Origin: a bacterium
GTDB taxonomy: Bacteria > UBA8248
Length of the DNA: 64,000 nucleotides
Assembly: GCA_963692865.2 (NCBI GenBank)
Contig: OY843592.1
Coordinates: 3,616,001-3,680,000 of the forward strand
Reading direction: 5' to 3'
Below are positions 2,568-7,902 of this stretch, piece after piece. The notes under the pieces are model-generated. The model was not told where the DNA came from, did not search any database, and worked only from the letters and a program-made list of their open reading frames with translations. Each line of letters starts with the position of its first letter. Positions within the stretch are counted from its first letter, which is position 1. The position numbers were made by a program, and so were the translations under genes.

Positions 2568-4088
2568 TTATTCGTGCGCGCCGCGCCCGTTCAGGTCGGC
2601 GGGGTCGGTCACCTCGACGCTTCCCTTGAGCCCGAACAGGCGCTGCATCTTCTTCCTGAAGGACGGCGTAAAGAGTTTTTCGGCGTAAAACCGGCCCGCC
2701 ACCCTTTTGTTCACCTGCGCGAGCGTGGGATATACGTGCACCGTATCCACCACTTCCTTGACGTGCATCTTCTTGCGGACGGCCAGCGCGAACTCGTGCA
2801 ATATCTCCCCCGCCGCAGGCCCGACCAAATCCGCCCCCACGAGCCTGCCCTTCTCGTCACACACGACCTTGCACACACCCTCCGTCTCCCCGTCCAGCAC
2901 GGCGCGATCCACCCGGCTCATCGGAAAGCGCAAGACCTGAAAGCGATTCGCCCCCAAGGCGGCCTCGGCGTCGGCTTCGCTCAAGCCCACGTGCGCCGCT
3001 TCGGGCGTCGTGTAAATCGTCCACGGCACGGCGTCGTAGTTCGTCTTTTTCTTGAGAAACGGGAACGGAATCCCGAAAGGCGCGCTGAAGAGCATGTTCC
3101 TGAGCGCCACGCCCGCCTCGTATTCCGCCATATGGGTGAAGAGATATTGCCCTCGAATATCACCGGCGGCGAAGATGCGCGGATTCGCGGTTTGGAGATA
3201 TTCATCCGTCTCCACGCCTCGCGGGGAGTATTTGACGCCCGCTTTTTCCAGGTACATTCCGCCCACGTTGGGCGACCGGCCGGTCGCGATGAGAAGTTGA
3301 TCGCAGGTCCATTCTCTCTTGCCCGACAGCGTATCAGCTTCGAGAAAAATCTCCTCGCCGCGTTTCTCGACTTTTTGCGTCTTCACGTTGAAATGGAGTT
3401 TGAGACCGGATTTCGCCAAGGAGTCAGCCAGAATATCGGCCATTTCCTTGTCGAGCCTCGGCAGGAGTTTCGGCGCGCTTTGCAGCACTTCCACCTCGGC
3501 GCCGAGTTGTTGAAACGCCTGTGACAATTCCAGGCCGATGGGTCCCGCGCCCAGCACCACCATGCGCCGGGGCAGTTCCTCCAAATCGAAAACGGTCTCG
3601 TTCGTGAGGTAGGGCACGCCGTCGAGGCCGGCGATGGGCGGCACGAAGGGAGAACTCCCCATGGACAGTAAAAACCGCTTGGCCCGCAGGGTTCTGTCTC
3701 CTATCTGAAACGTATCCGGACCGGTAAAGGCCCCGTCGCCGAAAATCACCTCGATGCCCATGCCCTCGAAGCGCTCGGGCGCGTCGTGCTCGCCGATATG
3801 GGCCTGGGCCGCCTTCATACGCTTCATGACGCGAGAGAAATCGACGCGCACGTCGCCCACATCAATCCCGAACTCGGGCATCAATCGCGCCTGCGCCGCC
3901 AGCCTGGCCGAGCGGATCAAGCCTTTCGAGGGCACGCATCCATAATTGAGGCAATCACCGCCGAGCTTCGTCTTCTCGACGAGCGCGGCTTTGGCGCCCA
4001 GTTGCGCCGCGCCGACGGACGCCACCAGTCCGCCGACGCCTCCCCCGATGGACACCAAATCAAACTCAGACTCTTTTAGCATCTTCAT
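2568..4088 (-). CDS. Class I pyridine nucleotide-disulfide oxidoreductase (mercuric reductase/dihydrolipoamide dehydrogenase-like)
   Basis: GGGVGG FAD motif, GGDCLNYGCVPSK redox disulfide, GAGPIGLE NAD(P) motif, AAGDI, C-terminal HVYPTL. Confidence 0.88.
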   Translation of the reverse strand: MKMLKESEFDLVSIGGGVGGLVASVGAAQLGAKAALVEKTKLGGDCLNYGCVPSKGLIRSARLAAQARLMPEFGIDVGDVRVDFSRVMKRMKAAQAHIGEHDAPERFEGMGIEVIFGDGAFTGPDTFQIGDRTLRAKRFLLSMGSSPFVPPIAGLDGVPYLTNETVFDLEELPRRMVVLGAGPIGLELSQAFQQLGAEVEVLQSAPKLLPRLDKEMADILADSLAKSGLKLHFNVKTQKVEKRGEEIFLEADTLSGKREWTCDQLLIATGRSPNVGGMYLEKAGVKYSPRGVETDEYLQTANPRIFAAGDIRGQYLFTHMAEYEAGVALRNMLFSAPFGIPFPFLKKKTNYDAVPWTIYTTPEAAHVGLSEADAEAALGANRFQVLRFPMSRVDRAVLDGETEGVCKVVCDEKGRLVGADLVGPAAGEILHEFALAVRKKMHVKEVVDTVHVYPTLAQVNKRVAGRFYAEKLFTPSFRKKMQRLFGLKGSVEVTDPADLNGRGAHE

Positions 4089-4142: not shown

Positions 4143-5669
4143 TCAAGACGCTTCCTCAGCCATTGGTTTGAAACCAAACGCGAAAAACAAAATAGCAATG
4201 AGCAGATAACCGGCGGCTATGCCGGGCGCCGCCCCCCACCCGAAGAAGCTCACGACGCCGCCGGGCGTGATCCGCCAGGCGTGGATAATCCCGAACCAGC
4301 TCAATACCGCGCCGGCCAAAGCCCAGCTTCCCGCCTGTTTCGGCTTCTTATCGAGCAGTTTCGCAACGATGGCCGTCAATATGATGGAAGTGAAAAGAAA
4401 ACCCCGCTCCAGGGTGATCATCCCCACTAGATGAAACCCCGCCTTGGCGAACGCGTCCTGCCCTATTTTCCACAAGCTCGCGCCCGCCGCCCGGAGGGAA
4501 GATTCCACCATCAGCAGGCCCCACGCGGCGATGGCGGGTATCAACCCGATGGCCACAGCTGGCCCGTGATTCTTCGGCACGGCCTGAAACGCCTGTGTGA
4601 GCATCATCACCCCTATCCAGAGCATGAGGGCGAAGAGCGCCTCGCCCGGAATGATTTTCGAAAGCGCCGCTATCGAGCCGGTGAAGCAGAGGATCGTCAT
4701 CACCACCCCGTTCAGGGCGCTGTAGCCCGAGCGCGCGCCGACCTTCTTCCAGGCAGGATGTCCGATATATATCGTCGTGGGAAAACAACTACCCAGACAT
4801 GCCGCGAGAAGCGAACCCGCGCCGTTCACCGCCAGAGAACCGCCCGTTTCGAATTCGTCACCCGCAGCTGCCGCACTTTCCAGGCACATCAGACTGCCCA
4901 CAAGCGTCATCAGGCCCATGGGGATGGAAACCGCGAGGTAATCCCAGGCCAGCGGGCCGAAGAGAGCGTCGGCCAAAGGGACGAGGGCGGAGGACGGGAG
5001 CGCAAGGCCAACAGGCGCAGGAACGCCTTCTGGAAATCCCTTGACGAGGGCGGACAAAACCACCCCCGCCGCCACCGCCACGAGGCCGCCCGGCAAACCG
5101 AAGGGAAACCTGAATCCGCCGAAATAATGGAGCAGGATGATTCCCAGAGGCACCATGGAGAGAAGCGGATTTTCCCAGATTCTGAACGCGAAATCCATGG
5201 AAATGAATGTGAGCGCGATGCCCCCCAGTGCCGAGAGCAGAGCGGCCCTTGGCGCAACCCGTCTGATCCACCCGCCCGCCAGCGAGCCTGCTGTTTCGAT
5301 GACCCCGCTCACAAAACAGGCCGCCAGCCCCGCCTTCCAGGCCGCTTCCGCGCTTCCGGTCTTGAGTTTCACGGGGAGCATCACGAAGAAGATGAATGCG
5401 AAAAGCGTCACCGTGTTGAGGCCGTAGGGCATGGCGGTCACATCGTCGCGGCCCTCGCGCGCGGCCAGGCGCCGCGCCTGCCAGGTGTAGAAAAGGTTGC
5501 CGCCCAGAAGGCTCAGGGCCGCGGCGGGCAATACGCGCCCGAAAATGAGAGACTCAGGAAAACCCAGCAGCCCTTTGAGAAAACTCACGATGAGAAGAAG
5601 ATTGATAAGGTTGTCCATCCACAGGCCGAAAAAGCCGTCGACATCACCCTTCACAAACCATCTGGGCAT
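4143..5669 (-). CDS. NCS2/AzgA-like nucleobase permease
   Basis: Polytopic membrane protein with GDVDGFFGL N-terminus, ESAAAAGDEF and PTTIYIGHPAWK motifs; start at 5669 or 5681. Confidence 0.8.
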   Translation of the reverse strand: MPRWFVKGDVDGFFGLWMDNLINLLLIVSFLKGLLGFPESLIFGRVLPAAALSLLGGNLFYTWQARRLAAREGRDDVTAMPYGLNTVTLFAFIFFVMLPVKLKTGSAEAAWKAGLAACFVSGVIETAGSLAGGWIRRVAPRAALLSALGGIALTFISMDFAFRIWENPLLSMVPLGIILLHYFGGFRFPFGLPGGLVAVAAGVVLSALVKGFPEGVPAPVGLALPSSALVPLADALFGPLAWDYLAVSIPMGLMTLVGSLMCLESAAAAGDEFETGGSLAVNGAGSLLAACLGSCFPTTIYIGHPAWKKVGARSGYSALNGVVMTILCFTGSIAALSKIIPGEALFALMLWIGVMMLTQAFQAVPKNHGPAVAIGLIPAIAAWGLLMVESSLRAAGASLWKIGQDAFAKAGFHLVGMITLERGFLFTSIILTAIVAKLLDKKPKQAGSWALAGAVLSWFGIIHAWRITPGGVVSFFGWGAAPGIAAGYLLIAILFFAFGFKPMAEEAS

Positions 5670-5841
5670 CGGAGTCCCCATGTTAAATGTCAATACGTCA
5701 AACCGAGCGCGGCGCAACTCACGGGATAGTAAAACACGCAGGCGTGTTCGCCAAAGCGCGCGAGGCAGTTTTTCTCACCCCTGTCGTTTGATATGATTCG
5801 CTAATCAATTATCACCTTCGTGAACGTCGAGGAGAAAAGCG

Positions 5842-6594
5842 ATGGAAGCTGTCAAAGTCTATACGCGCCACGGCTGATACACCTGCGCCCTTACGAGAGA
5901 GTTTCTCTCGTCCAGCGGCCTCGAAGTCGTCAACCGTGACTGCACGAACGACGCCGAAGCGCAAGCGGAACTGAAAGCACTCGGAATCAAATCCCTGCCC
6001 GTCGCCGTGCGCGGAGAGAACGTGGTAGTGGGCTATGACGTGGACGCGCTCCGCGCTGCCTTCGGCATCGAACAAGAAGGCGCAGGTCCCCTCTCCTCCG
6101 AAAAGATGCTCCACTACTTCGAGATGGTCTTCGACGCCCTGCGCCGCGTGGTTCGCCAGATCCCGCACGAAACGCTCGACTGGGTATCTCCCGGCAGGCC
6201 CCGCACGCTGCGCCAACTCACCTGGCACAGCTTCGAGCGTCCGGACCTCGTGATGCAGGCCCACGCCTCGGGGGAGTACACCGAGGAGATGGTGCGGCGG
6301 TATGAAACGATGGCGAACGACTATGATACGACCGAAGACATCTGCGCCTATGGGGATGAAATCCAAGCCAGACTCACCGATTTCCTGACCGACGGCGGCG
6401 AGGCGCTCGCGAAAAAAGTGTCGAGCTACATGGGGCCGATCACCGTGCATGAACTGATGATCCTCTCCCTGGGACACGCTTTCCAGCATCTGCGGCAAAC
6501 CTACCACTACTTCGGAATGCTGGAGATTACGCCGGAAAATCCACTCCAAGCCGAAGACTACGAGGAAGTGCCCGTGCCCAAGGATCTTTTCTAG
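5842..6594 (+). CDS. Putative selenoprotein: glutaredoxin/NrdH-like domain (U-Y-T-C) fused to DinB/YfiT-like domain, 250 aa
   Basis: RBS GAGGAG then ATG 5842; MEAVKVYTRHG-[TGA 5875-5877]-YTCALTREFLSSSG...LGIKSLPVAVRGENVVVGYD, in frame with the 6007-6594 ORF. The C-terminal domain has LRQLTWH and HAFQHLRQ His motifs. A hairpin follows the TGA. Confidence 0.85.
5893..5911 (+). promoter_or_regulatory. Candidate bacterial SECIS hairpin for UGA at 5875
   Basis: ACGAGAGA-GTT-TCTCTCGT, a perfect 8-bp stem with a G-initiated loop, starting 15 nt after the TGA. Confidence 0.6.
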
Positions 6595-6625: not shown

Positions 6626-7902
6626 ATGCCCTCGAAAGACACGTTTCCCTTCCGCGCAAACCGCGCACGCATGAAGCGCGAGTTCAACGCCAGGCGAAGA
6701 TAGGCAAATACGGGAAAACGGGCCTCGACCGCGTGGCCTTTACGCCGGTCTACAATGAGGCGCGCGACCTCGCCGAGGGCTGGATGAGGGAGGCGGGCCT
6801 CACAACGCTCGTGGACGCCGTGGGAAATCTCTACGGAAGAAAAGAGGGCCGCGTGCGCGGGCTTCCCGCCGTGATGACCGGCTCTCACCTCGATTCCCAA
6901 AGCCCGGGCGGGCGGTTCGACGGACCCGCAGGCGTTCTCACCGCTCTTGAAGCGGTGCGGCGCATCGGCGAGACGGGACTCGCCCACGACCACCCCATCG
7001 AGGTGGTGGCCTTCGTGGGGGAGGAATCCGCCTGCGGGATGACGGTGTTCGGCAGCAGCGTCGCCACGGGCGTCGTGGGCGTGAAGGATTTGAAGAACAC
7101 GGTGCATCCGCCCACAGGAAAATCCCTGTATGAGGCCATCGAGGCGGTGGGTGGAAACCCCGCGCGCACCCGCTCATGCCGGATTAAAAATGGATCGCTC
7201 AAGGCCTTTCTGGAACTTCACATCGAGCAAGGGCCGGTTCTCGAATCGGCCGAGGTGCCCATCGGCATCGTGGACCGGGTGGTGGGATACGCGAGGGGCG
7301 AGGTCCACTTCACGGGCGTTACGGCGCACTCGGGCGGACAGCCCATGCCCTACCGCAAGGACGCCGGCATCGCAGCGGCGGACTTCATGGTCCGCATGGA
7401 AAATTTCGTGAACCGCGCGCCCGAATCCCAGCGCGTGACAATCACATTCGGGGAGATGGAGGCGCACCCGGGGTGGGTGTCCATCGTGCCCGGAGGCGCG
7501 AGGCTTTCTTTCGATCTCAGAAGCAGGAGCCAGGCGGTGATGGAGCGCACTATCGCGCGCATGGAAAAGACGCTCGCCTCCATTGAGAAGGAGCGGGGCG
7601 TAAAGGGCCATCTCTCCGACGTGAAGAAGCTGGCCGTTTGCCCCGCCTCGGGCAACATTCAAAAAGCGCTCCGGCGCGCTTCACGGGAAACGGGCCATGC
7701 CTCTCTCACTCTTTCGAGCGGCGGAGTGCACGACGCCTGCCGGATGGCGGAGATTTGCCCGATGGGCATGGTGTTCATCCCCTCGGTGGGCGGGCTCTCG
7801 CACACGCCCGAGGAATTCACGCACTTCGACGACATGGTGAAGGGCGCGGAAATCCTCGCCTCCGCCATCGCGCATCTCGCCAACGAGAAAGTGAAGGCGT
7901 AA
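6626..7902 (+). CDS. Zn-dependent amidohydrolase, M20 hydantoinase/carbamoylase (allantoate amidohydrolase-like) family; apparent 1-nt frameshift near 6690
   Basis: GSHLDS, GRFDGPAGV, GEES, LELHIEQGPVLE, GVHDA and GLSH motifs. AAGGAG RBS plus ATG 6626 lies one base out of frame with the main ORF. Confidence 0.85.

What the first reader, a model, noticed from the sequence alone, without database searches (positions are those of the whole stretch)
5842..6594. Hidden selenoprotein: seleno-glutaredoxin (UxxC) fused to a DinB/YfiT-type domain
Seen: an RBS and ATG at 5842 open a glutaredoxin/NrdH-like N-terminus (VKVYTRHG-TGA-YTC...SLP...VVGYD). The TGA sits exactly where the attacking Cys of CxxC belongs, the frame continues into the 6007-6594 ORF, and a perfect 8-bp hairpin follows. 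Established: UxxC thioredoxin-fold selenoproteins exist, and DinB/YfiT-superfamily proteins use three His residues (here TWH and HAFQH) and include low-molecular-weight-thiol S-transferases. Inference: one polypeptide couples a Sec redox centre to a metal-dependent thiol-transfer domain, possibly forming and then resolving thiol conjugates. I know of no biochemical characterisation of such a fusion, and standard gene callers would lose the whole redox domain.
Basis: partly seen in the sequence, partly recalled or inferred. Interest (0 to 1): 0.85.

Follow-up and report, generated by a model that had tools for sequence, protein, structure and literature searches.

The report
Hidden selenoprotein: glutaredoxin fused to DinB
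A gene that annotation pipelines cut short at an in-frame TGA encodes a 250-residue selenocysteine protein: a glutaredoxin-like redox domain joined to a DinB/YfiT-type metal domain, found in several bacterial phyla and of untested function.

Summary
ATG 5842 opens a frame that crosses TGA 5875-5877 (codon 12) and runs to TAG 6594. It gives a 250-aa protein with Pfam Glutaredoxin (res 4-56) and DinB_2 (res 93-219) domains.

- **TGA is conserved.** It sits at this position in 35 of 35 full-length homologues from related genomes (100 to 47% identity), in 18 of 18 loci from other phyla, and in 80 of 80 metagenome loci of a sister subfamily.
- **Cys homologues exist.** Full-length database homologues with the same two domains carry Cys there: 53 of the 55 matched stretches that cover the position.
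- **The N-terminus is coding.** Codons 1-55 are under purifying selection (dN/dS 0.02-0.11).
- **A SECIS-type hairpin follows.** An 8-bp stem with a GUU loop lies 23 nt after the UGA. It meets the published bacterial SECIS criteria and shows a G-C to A-U compensatory switch (30 versus 21 sequences, never broken).
- **The Sec machinery is complete.** The genome has selA, selB, selD and tRNA-Sec.
- **The fold agrees.** The AlphaFold model (pLDDT 90) matches cGrx1/NrdH and DinB/YfiT structures, and the three metal-binding His are conserved.

Function is inferred only: probably a metal- and thiol-dependent transferase or reductase with a built-in selenol redoxin. Databases list only truncated "DinB family protein" entries. 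No paper searched, including the 2026 table of selenoprotein families, mentions a DinB fusion.

The parts
5831..5834 (+). Ribosome-binding site GGAG, 7 nt before the start codon
   Evidence: GGAG lies within 25 nt upstream of the ATG in 34 of 35 homologous loci (read from the printout; L050 has AGAGAG instead).
5842..6594 (+). Full coding sequence of the 250-aa selenoprotein (ATG 5842, Sec codon 12, stop TAG 6592-6594)
   Evidence: There are 35 full-length matches, each with exactly one in-frame TGA.
5875..5877 (+). UGA read as selenocysteine (U12), first position of the UxxC redox motif (U12-Y-T-C15, 5875-5886)
   Evidence: TGA is conserved in 35/35, 18/18 and 80/80 loci. Cys occupies the position in 53 of the 55 database stretches that cover it. 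It aligns with the first Cys of CPHC in PDB 7c10.
5893..5911 (+). SECIS-type hairpin: 8-bp stem (5893-5900 / 5904-5911) with apical loop GUU (5901-5903), 23 nt after the UGA
   Evidence: (-9.6 kcal/mol for the hairpin alone). Over 51 distinct sequences, 93.6% of cells are paired. Pair col 26-36 is G-C in 30 and A-U in 21 and is never broken. The hairpin meets the bSECIS criteria quoted in PMC13188914.
5842..6069 (+). Glutaredoxin/NrdH-like thioredoxin-fold domain (residues 1-76; Pfam match res 4-56), including the conserved cis-Pro candidate P53
   Evidence: cGrx1 7c10 gives Z 12.6, rmsd 1.5 A, 75 aligned residues and 37% identity. P53 is kept in 140/142 stretches.
6085..6549 (+). DinB/YfiT-type four-helix-bundle domain (residues 82-236; Pfam DinB_2 res 93-219) with His triad H129 (6226-6228), H212 (6475-6477) and H216 (6487-6489) and conserved R119, R121, R218, Q219
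   Evidence: DR0053 6iz2 gives Z 16.3, rmsd 2.2 A, 143 aligned; HHH in 111 of 153 stretches.
6626..7902 (+). Downstream gene, probably co-transcribed: M20 hydantoinase/carbamoylase-family amidase. It starts 31 nt after the stop codon. In this assembly it is frameshifted by a missing C after 6689.
   Evidence: TIGR01879 330.2 bits, cut-off 204; present next to the gene in 30 of 35 related loci; intact in relatives; contigs of three runs carry the extra C.
4143..5717 (-). Divergently transcribed upstream neighbour: conserved 524-aa protein with no family match
   Evidence: 88-93% identity to same-genus loci, against 64-72% for the overlapping + strand ORF. No Pfam or NCBIfam hit.

Best explanation
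Window 5842-6594 encodes one 250-residue selenoprotein. UGA at codon 12 is decoded as selenocysteine by SelB and tRNA-Sec, directed by the hairpin at 5893-5911.

The Sec sits at the nucleophilic first position of a UxxC motif in an N-terminal glutaredoxin/NrdH-like domain. That domain is fused to a DinB/YfiT-type four-helix bundle with the superfamily's three-His metal site.

The most likely working model, which is inferred and not shown:
- The DinB domain uses its metal to bind and activate a thiol, either a low-molecular-weight thiol or a thiol-bearing substrate, for transfer or redox chemistry.
- The tethered selenol/thiol pair (U12/C15) attacks the resulting mixed disulfide or conjugate and forms an internal selenenylsulfide.
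- An external reductase system then recycles that selenenylsulfide.

My odds:
- About 0.95 that this is a genuine, translated-through two-domain gene with a recoded UGA.
- About 0.9 that the residue inserted is Sec.
- About 0.3 for the specific thiol-transfer-plus-resolution mechanism.
For: SHOWN
1. The frame and motif are in the sequence.
2. Both domains score above the Pfam gathering cut-offs.
3. In 61 related genomes there are 35 full-length matches, each with exactly one TGA. Identity runs from 100 down to 47%. They lie in 34 of the 37 genomes of the taxonomic family, the window's own included.
4. Codons 1-55, upstream of the table-11 ORF start, give dN/dS 0.02-0.11 against 10 orthologues. 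The paralogue L051 gives 0.41, and two pairs are saturated. Synonymous changes also occur in codons 1-11, before the TGA.
5. Three of the 35 genes end in TGA, so TGA is also an ordinary stop in these genomes.
6. selD, selA, selB and tRNA-Sec are all over their cut-offs in the same genome.
7. The hairpin has a 3-nt GUU loop and an 8-bp stem, lies 23 nt from the UGA, and folds at -9.6 kcal/mol. It meets all four bSECIS criteria quoted in PMC13188914 (passages). It is conserved with a compensatory G-C/A-U switch: 30 versus 21 sequences, none broken, and 0 of 500 shuffles reach the observed covariation score.
8. In the profile search, 55 of 153 matched stretches cover position 12: 53 Cys, 1 Trp, 1 Ser. 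These have the same Grx + DinB_2 architecture.
9. Where DNA could be fetched for N-terminally truncated database relatives, the TGA was there. That holds in 18 of 18 loci from records titled Thermodesulfobacteriota, Binatia, Gemmatimonadetes, Sulfotelmatobacter and 'Deltaproteobacteria', and in 80 of 80 metagenome loci. selB is over its cut-off in 5 of 5 of those genomes tested.
10. The AlphaFold2 model has pLDDT 90.3 and pTM 0.85. Residues 1-76 match cGrx1, BC3987 and NrdH (Z 11.7-12.6). Residues 82-236 match DinB/YfiT proteins (Z 16.3 for DR0053, 13.9 YfiT, 12.9 Mtb mycothiol S-transferase, 11.0 BstA).
11. Residues kept in at least 85% of stretches across the whole family are G11, U/C12, C15, P53, R119, R121, H129, G198, H212, H216, R218 and Q219.

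FROM THE LITERATURE
All eight B. subtilis DinB/YfiT proteins are metal-dependent bacillithiol S-transferases. Three His (H67, H160, H164 in BstA) are their only invariant residues (PMC5815605, passages).

INFERRED
The division of labour between the two domains. Weak contextual support comes from a VOC/glyoxalase-family gene directly upstream in 12 of 18 loci from other phyla. In two related loci a pyridine-nucleotide-disulfide oxidoreductase is the next gene upstream.
Against: - There is no direct evidence of selenium incorporation or of the 250-aa product.
- The hairpin's folding energy is not unusual for its composition (z -1.24).
- The stem overlaps the codons for T-R/K-E-F-L-S. That peptide is also conserved in Cys forms (K19 in 68/72, E20 in 63/72). 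Part of the nucleotide conservation therefore reflects protein constraint. I had no DNA of Cys forms to show that they lack the hairpin.
- On function, no neighbouring gene is conserved across phyla. The M20 amidase appears only in the window's family (30 of 35 loci). VOC, Amt and GlnA appear only in the other phyla.
- No NCBIfam DinB-type or thiol-transferase model matches, and all Grx-type NCBIfam matches fall below their cut-offs.
A composite active site is therefore not shown.
- DinB-fold proteins also include isomerases and sulfoxide/selenoxide synthases, so transferase chemistry is only one option.
- The Sec loci were retrieved with motif patterns taken from truncated entries, which biases the sample towards Sec forms.
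Confidence: 0.55

Rival explanations
1. Same selenoprotein, different chemistry. The DinB domain would be an oxidoreductase for a small anionic substrate, for example an oxyanion or an oxidised sulfur or selenium compound. The conserved Arg residues next to the metal would hold the substrate. The UxxC domain would be its dedicated electron donor, as glutaredoxin is for the R773-type ArsC (that comparison is recalled, not tested).
For: R119, R121 and R218 are conserved in 85% or more of family members, beside the His triad. The N-domain gives weak ArsC/Spx-family NCBIfam matches (E 0.007-0.06). A UxxC/CxxC dithiol-type motif points to two-electron reduction rather than simple conjugation.
Against: No arsenic, selenium or sulfur-oxyanion genes lie next to it in any of the contexts examined. 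The ArsC-type matches are far below their cut-offs. No DinB-fold oxyanion reductase appeared among the structural matches.
Confidence: 0.15
2. Same selenoprotein, but not an enzyme of small-molecule chemistry. Sec12/Cys15 would supply a fourth and fifth ligand to the His-bound metal, making the protein a metal or redox sensor, buffer or chaperone.
For: Selenolate and thiolate are strong ligands for soft metals. The model's pTM of 0.85 suggests a fixed arrangement of the two domains. The nearest pyridine-nucleotide-disulfide oxidoreductase in the window scores best after a generic FAD-oxidoreductase model against MerA (357.8 bits, below its 454.45 cut-off).
Against: The protein has no DNA-binding or signalling domain. 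No metal transporters or mer genes lie adjacent. The conserved cis-Pro and the Grx-like motif are typical of catalytic redoxins.
Confidence: 0.1
3. The UGA is recoded but mostly not as Sec. Near-cognate read-through or Cys insertion would give a Cys or Trp protein.
For: One public gene call translates the TGA as Trp (P0014). That reflects the caller's choice of genetic code and is not biological evidence.
Against: The Sec machinery is complete, a SECIS-type hairpin sits at the canonical distance, and Cys homologues occupy exactly this site. TGA also ends 3 of the 35 homologous genes.
Confidence: 0.03
4. The TGA is a real stop. Only the DinB ORF (6007-6594) would be made, and the upstream glutaredoxin-like stretch would be a decayed remnant.
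For: Standard gene calling gives this result.
Against: Codons 1-55 give dN/dS 0.02-0.11. The ATG and ribosome-binding site are conserved. The TGA is conserved with UxxC in 35/35 and 18/18 loci and is present in 80/80 metagenome loci (79 of them UxxC). Full-length Cys homologues exist. A remnant would accumulate frameshifts and stops, and none is seen.
Confidence: 0.02

Closest known systems
Selenoprotein glutaredoxin (Grx, PF00462, UxxC), e.g. Clostridium oremlandii Grx; solved Cys relative cGrx1 (PDB 7c10)
   Same: Thioredoxin fold, with U at the first position of U/CxxC near the N-terminus. Identity to cGrx1 is 37-39% over about 75 residues. The 2026 review table lists this as a known Sec family (PMC13188914).
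   Different: Known seleno-Grx proteins are described as small single-domain redoxins. This one carries a 170-residue DinB-type domain on the same chain. Neither the review's main text nor its table mentions DinB, PF12867 or PF05163. It scores below the NCBIfam cut-offs for YruB, NrdH, mycoredoxin and Grx3.
DinB/YfiT (S-transferase-like, STL) superfamily: BstA/YfiT bacillithiol transferases, M. tuberculosis mycothiol S-transferase, DR0053
   Same: Four-helix-bundle fold (Z 16.3 DR0053, 13.9 YfiT, 12.9 MST, 11.0 BstA). His triad with the H...HxxxH pattern. Pfam DinB_2 is above its cut-off.
   Different: Sequence identity is only 9-18%, and no NCBIfam model of this superfamily matches. No characterised member read here has a fused redoxin or a Sec. 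PMC5815605 contains neither 'glutaredoxin' nor 'thioredoxin'. Activity is untested.
Two-domain DinB enzymes EgtB / OvsA / SenA (ergothioneine, ovoselenol and selenoneine synthases)
   Same: A DinB-type metal domain works together with a second domain on one chain in sulfur or selenium chemistry. The DinB domains align at Z 11.1-13.0.
   Different: In those enzymes the partner is a C-terminal domain of about 250 residues (chains of 392-449 aa), not an N-terminal redoxin. They are not selenoproteins. Nothing here shows C-S or C-Se bond formation.
Cys-type glutathione transferases (DHAR, CLIC and related; SspA/MglA share the fold)
   Same: The order of parts is the same: an N-terminal thioredoxin-fold domain carrying the catalytic Cys/Sec, followed by an all-helical domain. 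Whole-length structural alignments score Z 8.3-11.2.
   Different: The rmsd is 5-6.6 A for the longer alignments, and the Z values lie within the range the tool warns is common for helical proteins. There are no Pfam GST_N or GST_C matches. The helical domain is a DinB bundle with a metal site, which GSTs lack. This is an analogy of architecture, not membership.
UXX-star / Uxx_star glutaredoxin-like selenoproteins (NCBIfam NF041212, NF041114, NF041211, NF047338)
   Same: Glutaredoxin-like fold with Sec in the active-site motif. There are weak matches (E 1.5e-9 to 0.0085).
   Different: All scores are below the cut-offs (37.9 against 66 for NF041212). In this protein translation continues for 238 residues after the U, and the motif is a classical UxxC.

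Membership tests
Bacterial selenoprotein (SelB-dependent UGA recoding) | In-frame UGA at a conserved site, with coding conservation on both sides | tested here: met
   There are 35 of 35 full-length homologues with one TGA at codon 12. dN/dS is 0.02-0.11 over codons 1-55, with synonymous changes before the TGA.
Bacterial selenoprotein (SelB-dependent UGA recoding) | Cys-containing homologues with Cys aligned to the UGA | tested here: met
   Of the 55 database stretches that cover the position, 53 have Cys, with the same two domains.
Bacterial selenoprotein (SelB-dependent UGA recoding) | [quoted passage not shown] | tested here: met
   Loop GUU, 8 bp, 23 nt spacing, -9.6 kcal/mol. Conserved with a G-C/A-U compensatory pair in 51 distinct sequences.
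Bacterial selenoprotein (SelB-dependent UGA recoding) | selA, selB, selC and selD in the same genome | tested here: met
   All four are over their curated cut-offs.
Bacterial selenoprotein (SelB-dependent UGA recoding) | Selenium physically incorporated at the UGA position | not testable with these tools
   This needs 75Se labelling or mass spectrometry.
Glutaredoxin / NrdH-like redoxin (PF00462) | Profile match above the curated cut-off | tested here: met
   PF00462 scores 34.3 bits against a cut-off of 22.9.
Glutaredoxin / NrdH-like redoxin (PF00462) | Thioredoxin fold with the active-site C/UxxC at the start of helix 1 and a conserved cis-Pro | tested here: met
   The model matches cGrx1, BC3987 and NrdH at Z 11.7-12.6 and rmsd 1.4-2.5 A. 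U12 aligns with the first Cys of CPHC. P53 is kept in 140/142 stretches.
NrdH (TIGR02194) / YruB (TIGR02196) equivalogs | Score over the NCBIfam cut-off | tested here: not met
   38.5 against 85.75, and 46.3 against 88.55.
Glutaredoxin / NrdH-like redoxin (PF00462) | Reductant specificity (glutathione or thioredoxin reductase) | not testable with these tools
   This needs a biochemical assay.
DinB/YfiT (STL) superfamily | Profile match above the curated cut-off | tested here: met
   PF12867 scores 29.3 bits against a cut-off of 24.8.
DinB/YfiT (STL) superfamily | Four-helix-bundle DinB fold | tested here: met
   6iz2 gives Z 16.3, rmsd 2.2 A and 143 of 144 residues aligned. Eleven further DinB-type entries score Z 12.9 or higher. 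Foldseek E is 5.6e-5.
DinB/YfiT (STL) superfamily | Three conserved metal-binding His (H67, H160, H164 in BstA; PMC5815605) | tested here: met
   H129, H212 and H216 are invariant in 12 of 12 aligned Sec forms. HHH appears in 111 of 153 representative stretches, and most of the rest are fragments. A residue-by-residue superposition on the BstA ligands was not made.
DinB/YfiT (STL) superfamily | Metal-dependent thiol S-transferase activity | not testable with these tools
   This needs purified protein.
Canonical glutathione S-transferase | GST_N / GST_C profile matches and GST fold | tested here: inconclusive
   No GST family appears in Pfam at E <= 1. Whole-length structural alignments give Z 8.3-11.2 with rmsd up to 6.6 A, which lies within the tool's stated background for helical proteins.

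The most novel reading that the evidence does not exclude
The Sec of the redoxin domain and the three-His metal of the DinB domain form one composite active site. That would make a GST-like catalyst assembled from unrelated parts, with a selenolate as the nucleophile next to a metal-activated thiol. It could carry out chemistry not known for either parent family: deconjugation or reduction of thiol adducts, or C-S/C-Se bond handling related to the EgtB/SenA/OvsA branch of the DinB fold. It would also be among the more widespread unannotated selenoenzymes of soil and marine bacteria.
Probability: 0.2. Interest if true: 0.8.

Novelty: new variant of a known kind. Interest (0 to 1): 0.62.

Why it matters
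1. **Annotation.** The family is systematically mis-annotated. Of 45 close database entries, 44 are cut at the N-terminus. Of 153 matched stretches from the 150 best representatives, 98 start after the Sec site. Every truncated group for which DNA was fetched hides a TGA: 18/18 and 80/80 loci. This is therefore a large family, not a curiosity of one genome.
2. **DinB superfamily.** Most DinB/YfiT proteins have no known physiological substrate. A member with a covalently attached selenol/thiol redoxin implies that its catalytic cycle passes through a disulfide or selenenylsulfide state. That is a concrete, testable clue to the chemistry.
3. **Sec versus Cys.** Closely matched Sec (GUSSC) and Cys (GCSSC) forms of the same subfamily offer a natural system for asking what Sec buys over Cys.
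4. **Selenium demand.** The protein adds to the selenium requirement of marine nitrite-oxidiser relatives. The closest database homologues are named Nitrospinota and Nitrospinaceae.

Tried and rejected
**Energy-only test of the hairpin.** It was not significant. I relied on conservation and covariation instead.

**Shared neighbours as a route to function.** This failed. The M20 amidase follows the gene in 30 of 35 loci of the window's family, but in the other phyla the neighbours are LytB, a VOC/glyoxalase protein, Amt and GlnA.

**The M20 amidase as a clue.** Its best NCBIfam matches are allantoate amidohydrolase and ErtE, both below their cut-offs. I draw no link to ergothioneine.

**The upstream flavoprotein (2568-4088, minus strand).** It has a normal CxxxxC site and no TGA extension. 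Its role as reductant is speculation.

**RNA evidence.** No RNA holder was listed, so nothing can be said about expression.

**Run X5.** It is a relative with 126 differences. Its state at 5875 is not shown in the truncated table.

**A solved structure spanning both domains.** Only GST-like chains span both, at background-level Z. Absence of a DinB + Grx structure from these lists does not show that none exists.

**Literature.**
- Searches of 'selenoprotein + DinB + glutaredoxin', 'selenocysteine + DinB' and a six-term set with YfiT, DinB-like and others found nothing relevant.
- 'Nitrospina + selenocysteine' led to BSepDB (PMC13326102). Passages only were read. It has 0 occurrences of DinB or glutaredoxin in the main text, and its family list is in a supplement I could not open.
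- The review PMC13188914 (passages only) lists Grx and Grx-like Sec families, with 0 occurrences of DinB, PF12867 or PF05163.
- These genes may be filed under 'Grx' in BSepDB or in supplements. I could not check.

**Tree.** The 29 DNA-verified Sec rows form one side of a branch (SH-aLRT 100) against 37 Cys rows.
- I used 12 of the 35 related loci, 17 of the 18 other-phylum loci (L079 is cut by its contig end) and 37 of the 53 Cys representatives.
- The 80 GUSSC metagenome loci were not included.
- I therefore do not claim a single origin of Sec.
Full report
**What is in the sequence.** A GGAG ribosome-binding site (5831-5834) lies 7 nt before ATG 5842. The frame reads MEAVKVYTRHG-TGA-YTC and stays open to TAG 6592-6594, which gives 250 codons. 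Under table 11 only the GTG-started ORF 6007-6594 (195 aa) is listed. A perfect 8-bp hairpin (5893-5900 with 5904-5911, loop GUU) follows the TGA. The read-through protein matches Pfam Glutaredoxin (res 4-56, 34.3 bits, cut-off 22.9) and DinB_2 (res 93-219, 29.3 bits, cut-off 24.8). NCBIfam gives only sub-cut-off glutaredoxin-like matches (YruB, NrdH, Uxx_star and others) and no model that covers the whole protein.

**Is the TGA read through? The machinery.** The window's genome has all four Sec components over their curated cut-offs:
- selD at 334.6 bits, itself with one in-frame TGA;
- selA at 567.2 bits;
- selB at 391.7 bits, next to selA;
- tRNA-Sec at 76.7 bits against a gathering score of 47.

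**Is the TGA read through? Relatives.** A six-frame search of 61 related genomes found 35 matches that cover residues 1-250 (one covers 3-250). Each has exactly one TGA. They lie in 34 of the 37 genomes of the same taxonomic family, including all 23 of the genus. Outside that family there were no full-length matches in 24 genomes, and one fragment cut by a contig end.

After extracting the genes:
- all 35 start with ATG and read G-U-x-x-C at codons 11-15;
- 34 of 35 have GGAG within 25 nt upstream (read from the printout);
- 64 of 255 alignment columns are invariant.

Codons 1-55, all upstream of the conventional ORF start, give dN/dS of 0.02-0.11 against 10 orthologues. A divergent paralogue gives 0.41, and two pairs are saturated at synonymous sites. 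Synonymous changes also occur in codons 1-11, before the TGA. Three of the 35 genes end in TGA, so these organisms also use TGA as a stop.

**Is the TGA read through? Assembly error.** Contigs of three sequencing runs agree with the window over 5700-6587, including the TGA. All three come from one study and may be the source of the assembly.

**The SECIS element.** A 2026 review gives four criteria for a bacterial SECIS: an apical loop of 3-9 nt, a stem of 4-16 bp, a G within the first two loop positions (usually followed by G or U), 16-37 nt between the UGA and the loop, and MFE of -7.5 kcal/mol or lower (PMC13188914, passages). The hairpin here has a 3-nt GUU loop and an 8-bp stem, lies 23 nt from the UGA, and folds at -9.6 kcal/mol on its own.

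Its energy is not unusual for the local composition (z -1.24), so conservation carries the argument. The hairpin sits at the same offset in 18 of 18 loci from other phyla. In 53 sequences (51 distinct):
- 93.6% of pair cells are standard pairs;
- the middle pair is G-C in 30 sequences and A-U in 21, and is never broken;
- 0 of 500 shuffles reach the observed covariation score;
- every slid register pairs worse, at 33-69%.

One caveat applies. The stem overlaps the codons for T-R/K-E-F-L-S, a peptide that is also conserved in the Cys forms. The switch involves an Arg/Lys change plus a synonymous Leu codon change. I had no DNA of Cys forms to use as a control.

**Cys homologues and breadth.** A profile of 12 diverse read-through sequences was searched against 1.84 billion representative proteins. 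It found 1691 proteins at E <= 0.001, 300 at E <= 1e-10 and 28 at E <= 1e-30.

Among the 150 best (153 matched stretches), 55 stretches cover profile position 12. They carry 53 Cys, 1 Trp and 1 Ser. The other 98 stretches begin downstream of it. The Cys forms, with a typical motif QPGCSSCL, have the same Glutaredoxin + DinB_2 architecture and likewise no dedicated NCBIfam model.

Many truncated entries start at the Met that follows the motif (MKEFLS...). I fetched DNA for two such groups.
- **Group 1, species-representative genomes.** There were 22 loci. Their records are titled Syntrophobacteraceae, Thermodesulfobacteriota, Candidatus Binatia, Gemmatimonadetes, Candidatus Sulfotelmatobacter, 'Deltaproteobacteria' and 'Proteobacteria'. 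Of these, 18 include the N-terminal region, and all 18 read RPG-U-F-T/S-C upstream of the called start. selB is over its cut-off in 5 of 5 of those genomes tested.
- **Group 2, metagenome contigs, subfamily with the ERTxWHxxQH motif.** All 80 have TGA at the site. A regex found 78. By eye, L130 reads GUSSG, and L152 is cut by its contig end but shows USSC. Seventy-nine of the 80 read UxxC.

One of the 18 loci and one of the 5 genomes belong to a genome flagged as unpublished. The counts without it are 17/17 and 4/4.

In a quick maximum-likelihood tree, 29 DNA-verified Sec rows form one side of a branch (SH-aLRT 100) against 37 Cys rows. The rows were a subset, and the GUSSC clade was not included. 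I make no claim about the number of Sec/Cys switches.

**Database state.** Of 45 close database proteins, 44 cover 93% or less of the query. Their lengths are 154-233 aa. Where a source names them, the names are 'DinB family protein' or 'hypothetical protein', from Nitrospinota, Nitrospinaceae and Tectomicrobia records. The single 250-aa entry has W at position 12.

**Structure.** AlphaFold2 on the 12-sequence alignment gives pLDDT 90.3 and pTM 0.85.
- Residues 1-76 match Clostridium cGrx1 (7c10, Z 12.6, rmsd 1.5 A, 37% identity), BC3987 and NrdH.
- Residues 82-236 match DinB/YfiT proteins: DR0053 Z 16.3 (rmsd 2.2 A over 143 residues), YfiT 13.9, maleylpyruvate isomerase 13.0, M. tuberculosis mycothiol S-transferase 12.9, BstA 11.0. 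The DinB domains of OvsA, EgtB and SenA give Z 11.1-13.0.
- By sequence, U12 aligns with the first Cys of CPHC in 7c10.
- Only GST-like chains (MglA/SspA, GSTs, DHAR, CLIC) align over both domains. They give Z 8.3-11.2 with rmsd up to 6.6 A, which the tool rates as background for helical proteins.

Positions kept in at least 85% of family stretches are G11, U/C12, C15, K19, E20, L44, G48, P53, R119, R121, H129, G198, H212, H216, R218, Q219, G242 and P246. The His triad has the H...HxxxH pattern reported for BstA (H67, H160, H164). That paper also shows that all eight B. subtilis DinB/YfiT proteins have metal-dependent bacillithiol transferase activity (PMC5815605, passages).

**Context.** The real upstream neighbour is the minus-strand gene 4143-5717. 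It is 88-93% identical to the same-genus loci, against 64-72% for the overlapping plus-strand ORF, and it has no family match. Further upstream, also on the minus strand, lies a pyridine-nucleotide-disulfide oxidoreductase (2568-4088). Its CxxxxC site is intact. In two related loci it is the gene directly upstream of the selenoprotein gene.

Downstream, 31 nt after the stop and with its own ribosome-binding site, starts an M20 hydantoinase/carbamoylase-family amidase (TIGR01879 330 bits, cut-off 204). It follows the gene in 30 of 35 related loci. Branched-chain-type ABC transport genes come next.

In the other phyla the neighbours differ: LytB, then a VOC/glyoxalase-family gene directly upstream (12 of 18 loci), then the selenoprotein gene, then Amt (8 of 18) and GlnA. 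No partner is conserved across phyla.

**How it most likely works.** Shown: the gene is a recoded, conserved, two-domain gene. Its conserved residues are the redox motif, the redoxin cis-Pro candidate, the metal triad and a few Arg/Gln next to it.

Inferred:
- The DinB domain binds a metal and uses it to activate a thiol, as its characterised relatives do.
- The tethered U12/C15 pair attacks the resulting mixed disulfide or conjugate and forms a selenenylsulfide.
- An external reductase recycles that selenenylsulfide.

A dithiol-type UxxC/CxxC motif on the same chain argues that the catalytic cycle includes a two-electron redox step, which a plain S-transferase does not need. I give this mechanism about 0.3. 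The alternatives are an oxyanion or disulfide-type reductase built around the conserved Arg residues (0.15) and a metal or redox sensor or chaperone (0.1).

**Comparison with what is known, and novelty.** Sec-containing glutaredoxin (UxxC, PF00462) is an established selenoprotein family, and several Grx-like Sec families are catalogued (PMC13188914). DinB/YfiT thiol transferases are established too. What I could not find anywhere is the combination:
- three full-text searches gave nothing relevant;
- the 2026 review has 0 occurrences of DinB, PF12867 or PF05163;
- the BSepDB paper has 0 occurrences of DinB in its main text;
- NCBIfam has no model for it.

The limits of that check:
- supplementary family tables were closed;
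- two relevant papers are not held;
- cluster names could not be looked up;

The genes may already sit under 'Grx' in a selenoprotein database without the fusion being remarked. I therefore rate it a new variant of a known kind.

**Verdict.** The feature is a real, widespread and systematically truncated selenoprotein family. Its biochemical function is open. Interest 0.62.

Noticed in passing
window 6626-7902 (indel after 6689): The M20 hydantoinase/carbamoylase-family amidase downstream is frameshifted in this assembly: a run of three C in relatives is two C here. Relatives have an intact gene starting MPSKDTFPFRANRARM.... Contigs of three runs carry an extra C behind 6689. This is most likely an assembly error, not a pseudogene.
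   Followed up: yes
window 4143-5717 (-): A 524-aa protein is conserved in the window's taxonomic family (68-93% identity over 25 loci) and has no Pfam or NCBIfam match. It is transcribed divergently from the selenoprotein gene. The overlapping + strand ORF 4431-5729 is less conserved (38-72%) and is probably spurious.
   Followed up: partly
window 2568-4088 (-): A pyridine-nucleotide-disulfide oxidoreductase with a CLNYGC active site. Its best NCBIfam match is a generic FAD-containing oxidoreductase, and the MerA, Lpd and glutathione-reductase models all fall below their cut-offs. In loci L035 and L037 it is the gene directly upstream of the selenoprotein gene. It is a candidate reductase for the redoxin domain, but this is untested.
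   Followed up: partly
G000:C1:758988-759218 (outside the window) and similar places in relatives: A second, short glutaredoxin-like reading frame with two in-frame TGAs recurs in the own genome and in many relatives. It may be a UXX-star-type selenoprotein.
   Followed up: no
G000:C1:65915-66877 (outside the window): The genome's selD itself contains one in-frame TGA, so it is a Sec-containing selenophosphate synthetase.
   Followed up: no
G000:C1:1207504-1207596 and G000:C4:29719-29811: Two tRNA-Sec matches have identical scores (76.7 bits) on different contigs. This could be a true duplicate or redundant assembly. Contamination is estimated at 6.69%.
   Followed up: no
L051 (G023:C20:672-1436): One related genome carries a second, divergent copy of the selenoprotein gene (47% identity, 255 aa, still G-U-F-S-C). 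It has Val in place of the otherwise conserved Cys34 and a higher dN/dS of 0.41.
   Followed up: partly
L062-L079, directly upstream of the selenoprotein gene: In 12 of 18 loci from other phyla, a 129-aa VOC/glyoxalase-family gene lies directly upstream on the same strand, preceded by lytB/ispH. An ammonium transporter and glutamine synthetase follow downstream.
   Followed up: partly
L130 (metagenome locus): One of the 80 metagenome copies reads G-U-S-S-G. It has lost the resolving Cys of the UxxC motif while keeping the TGA.
   Followed up: no
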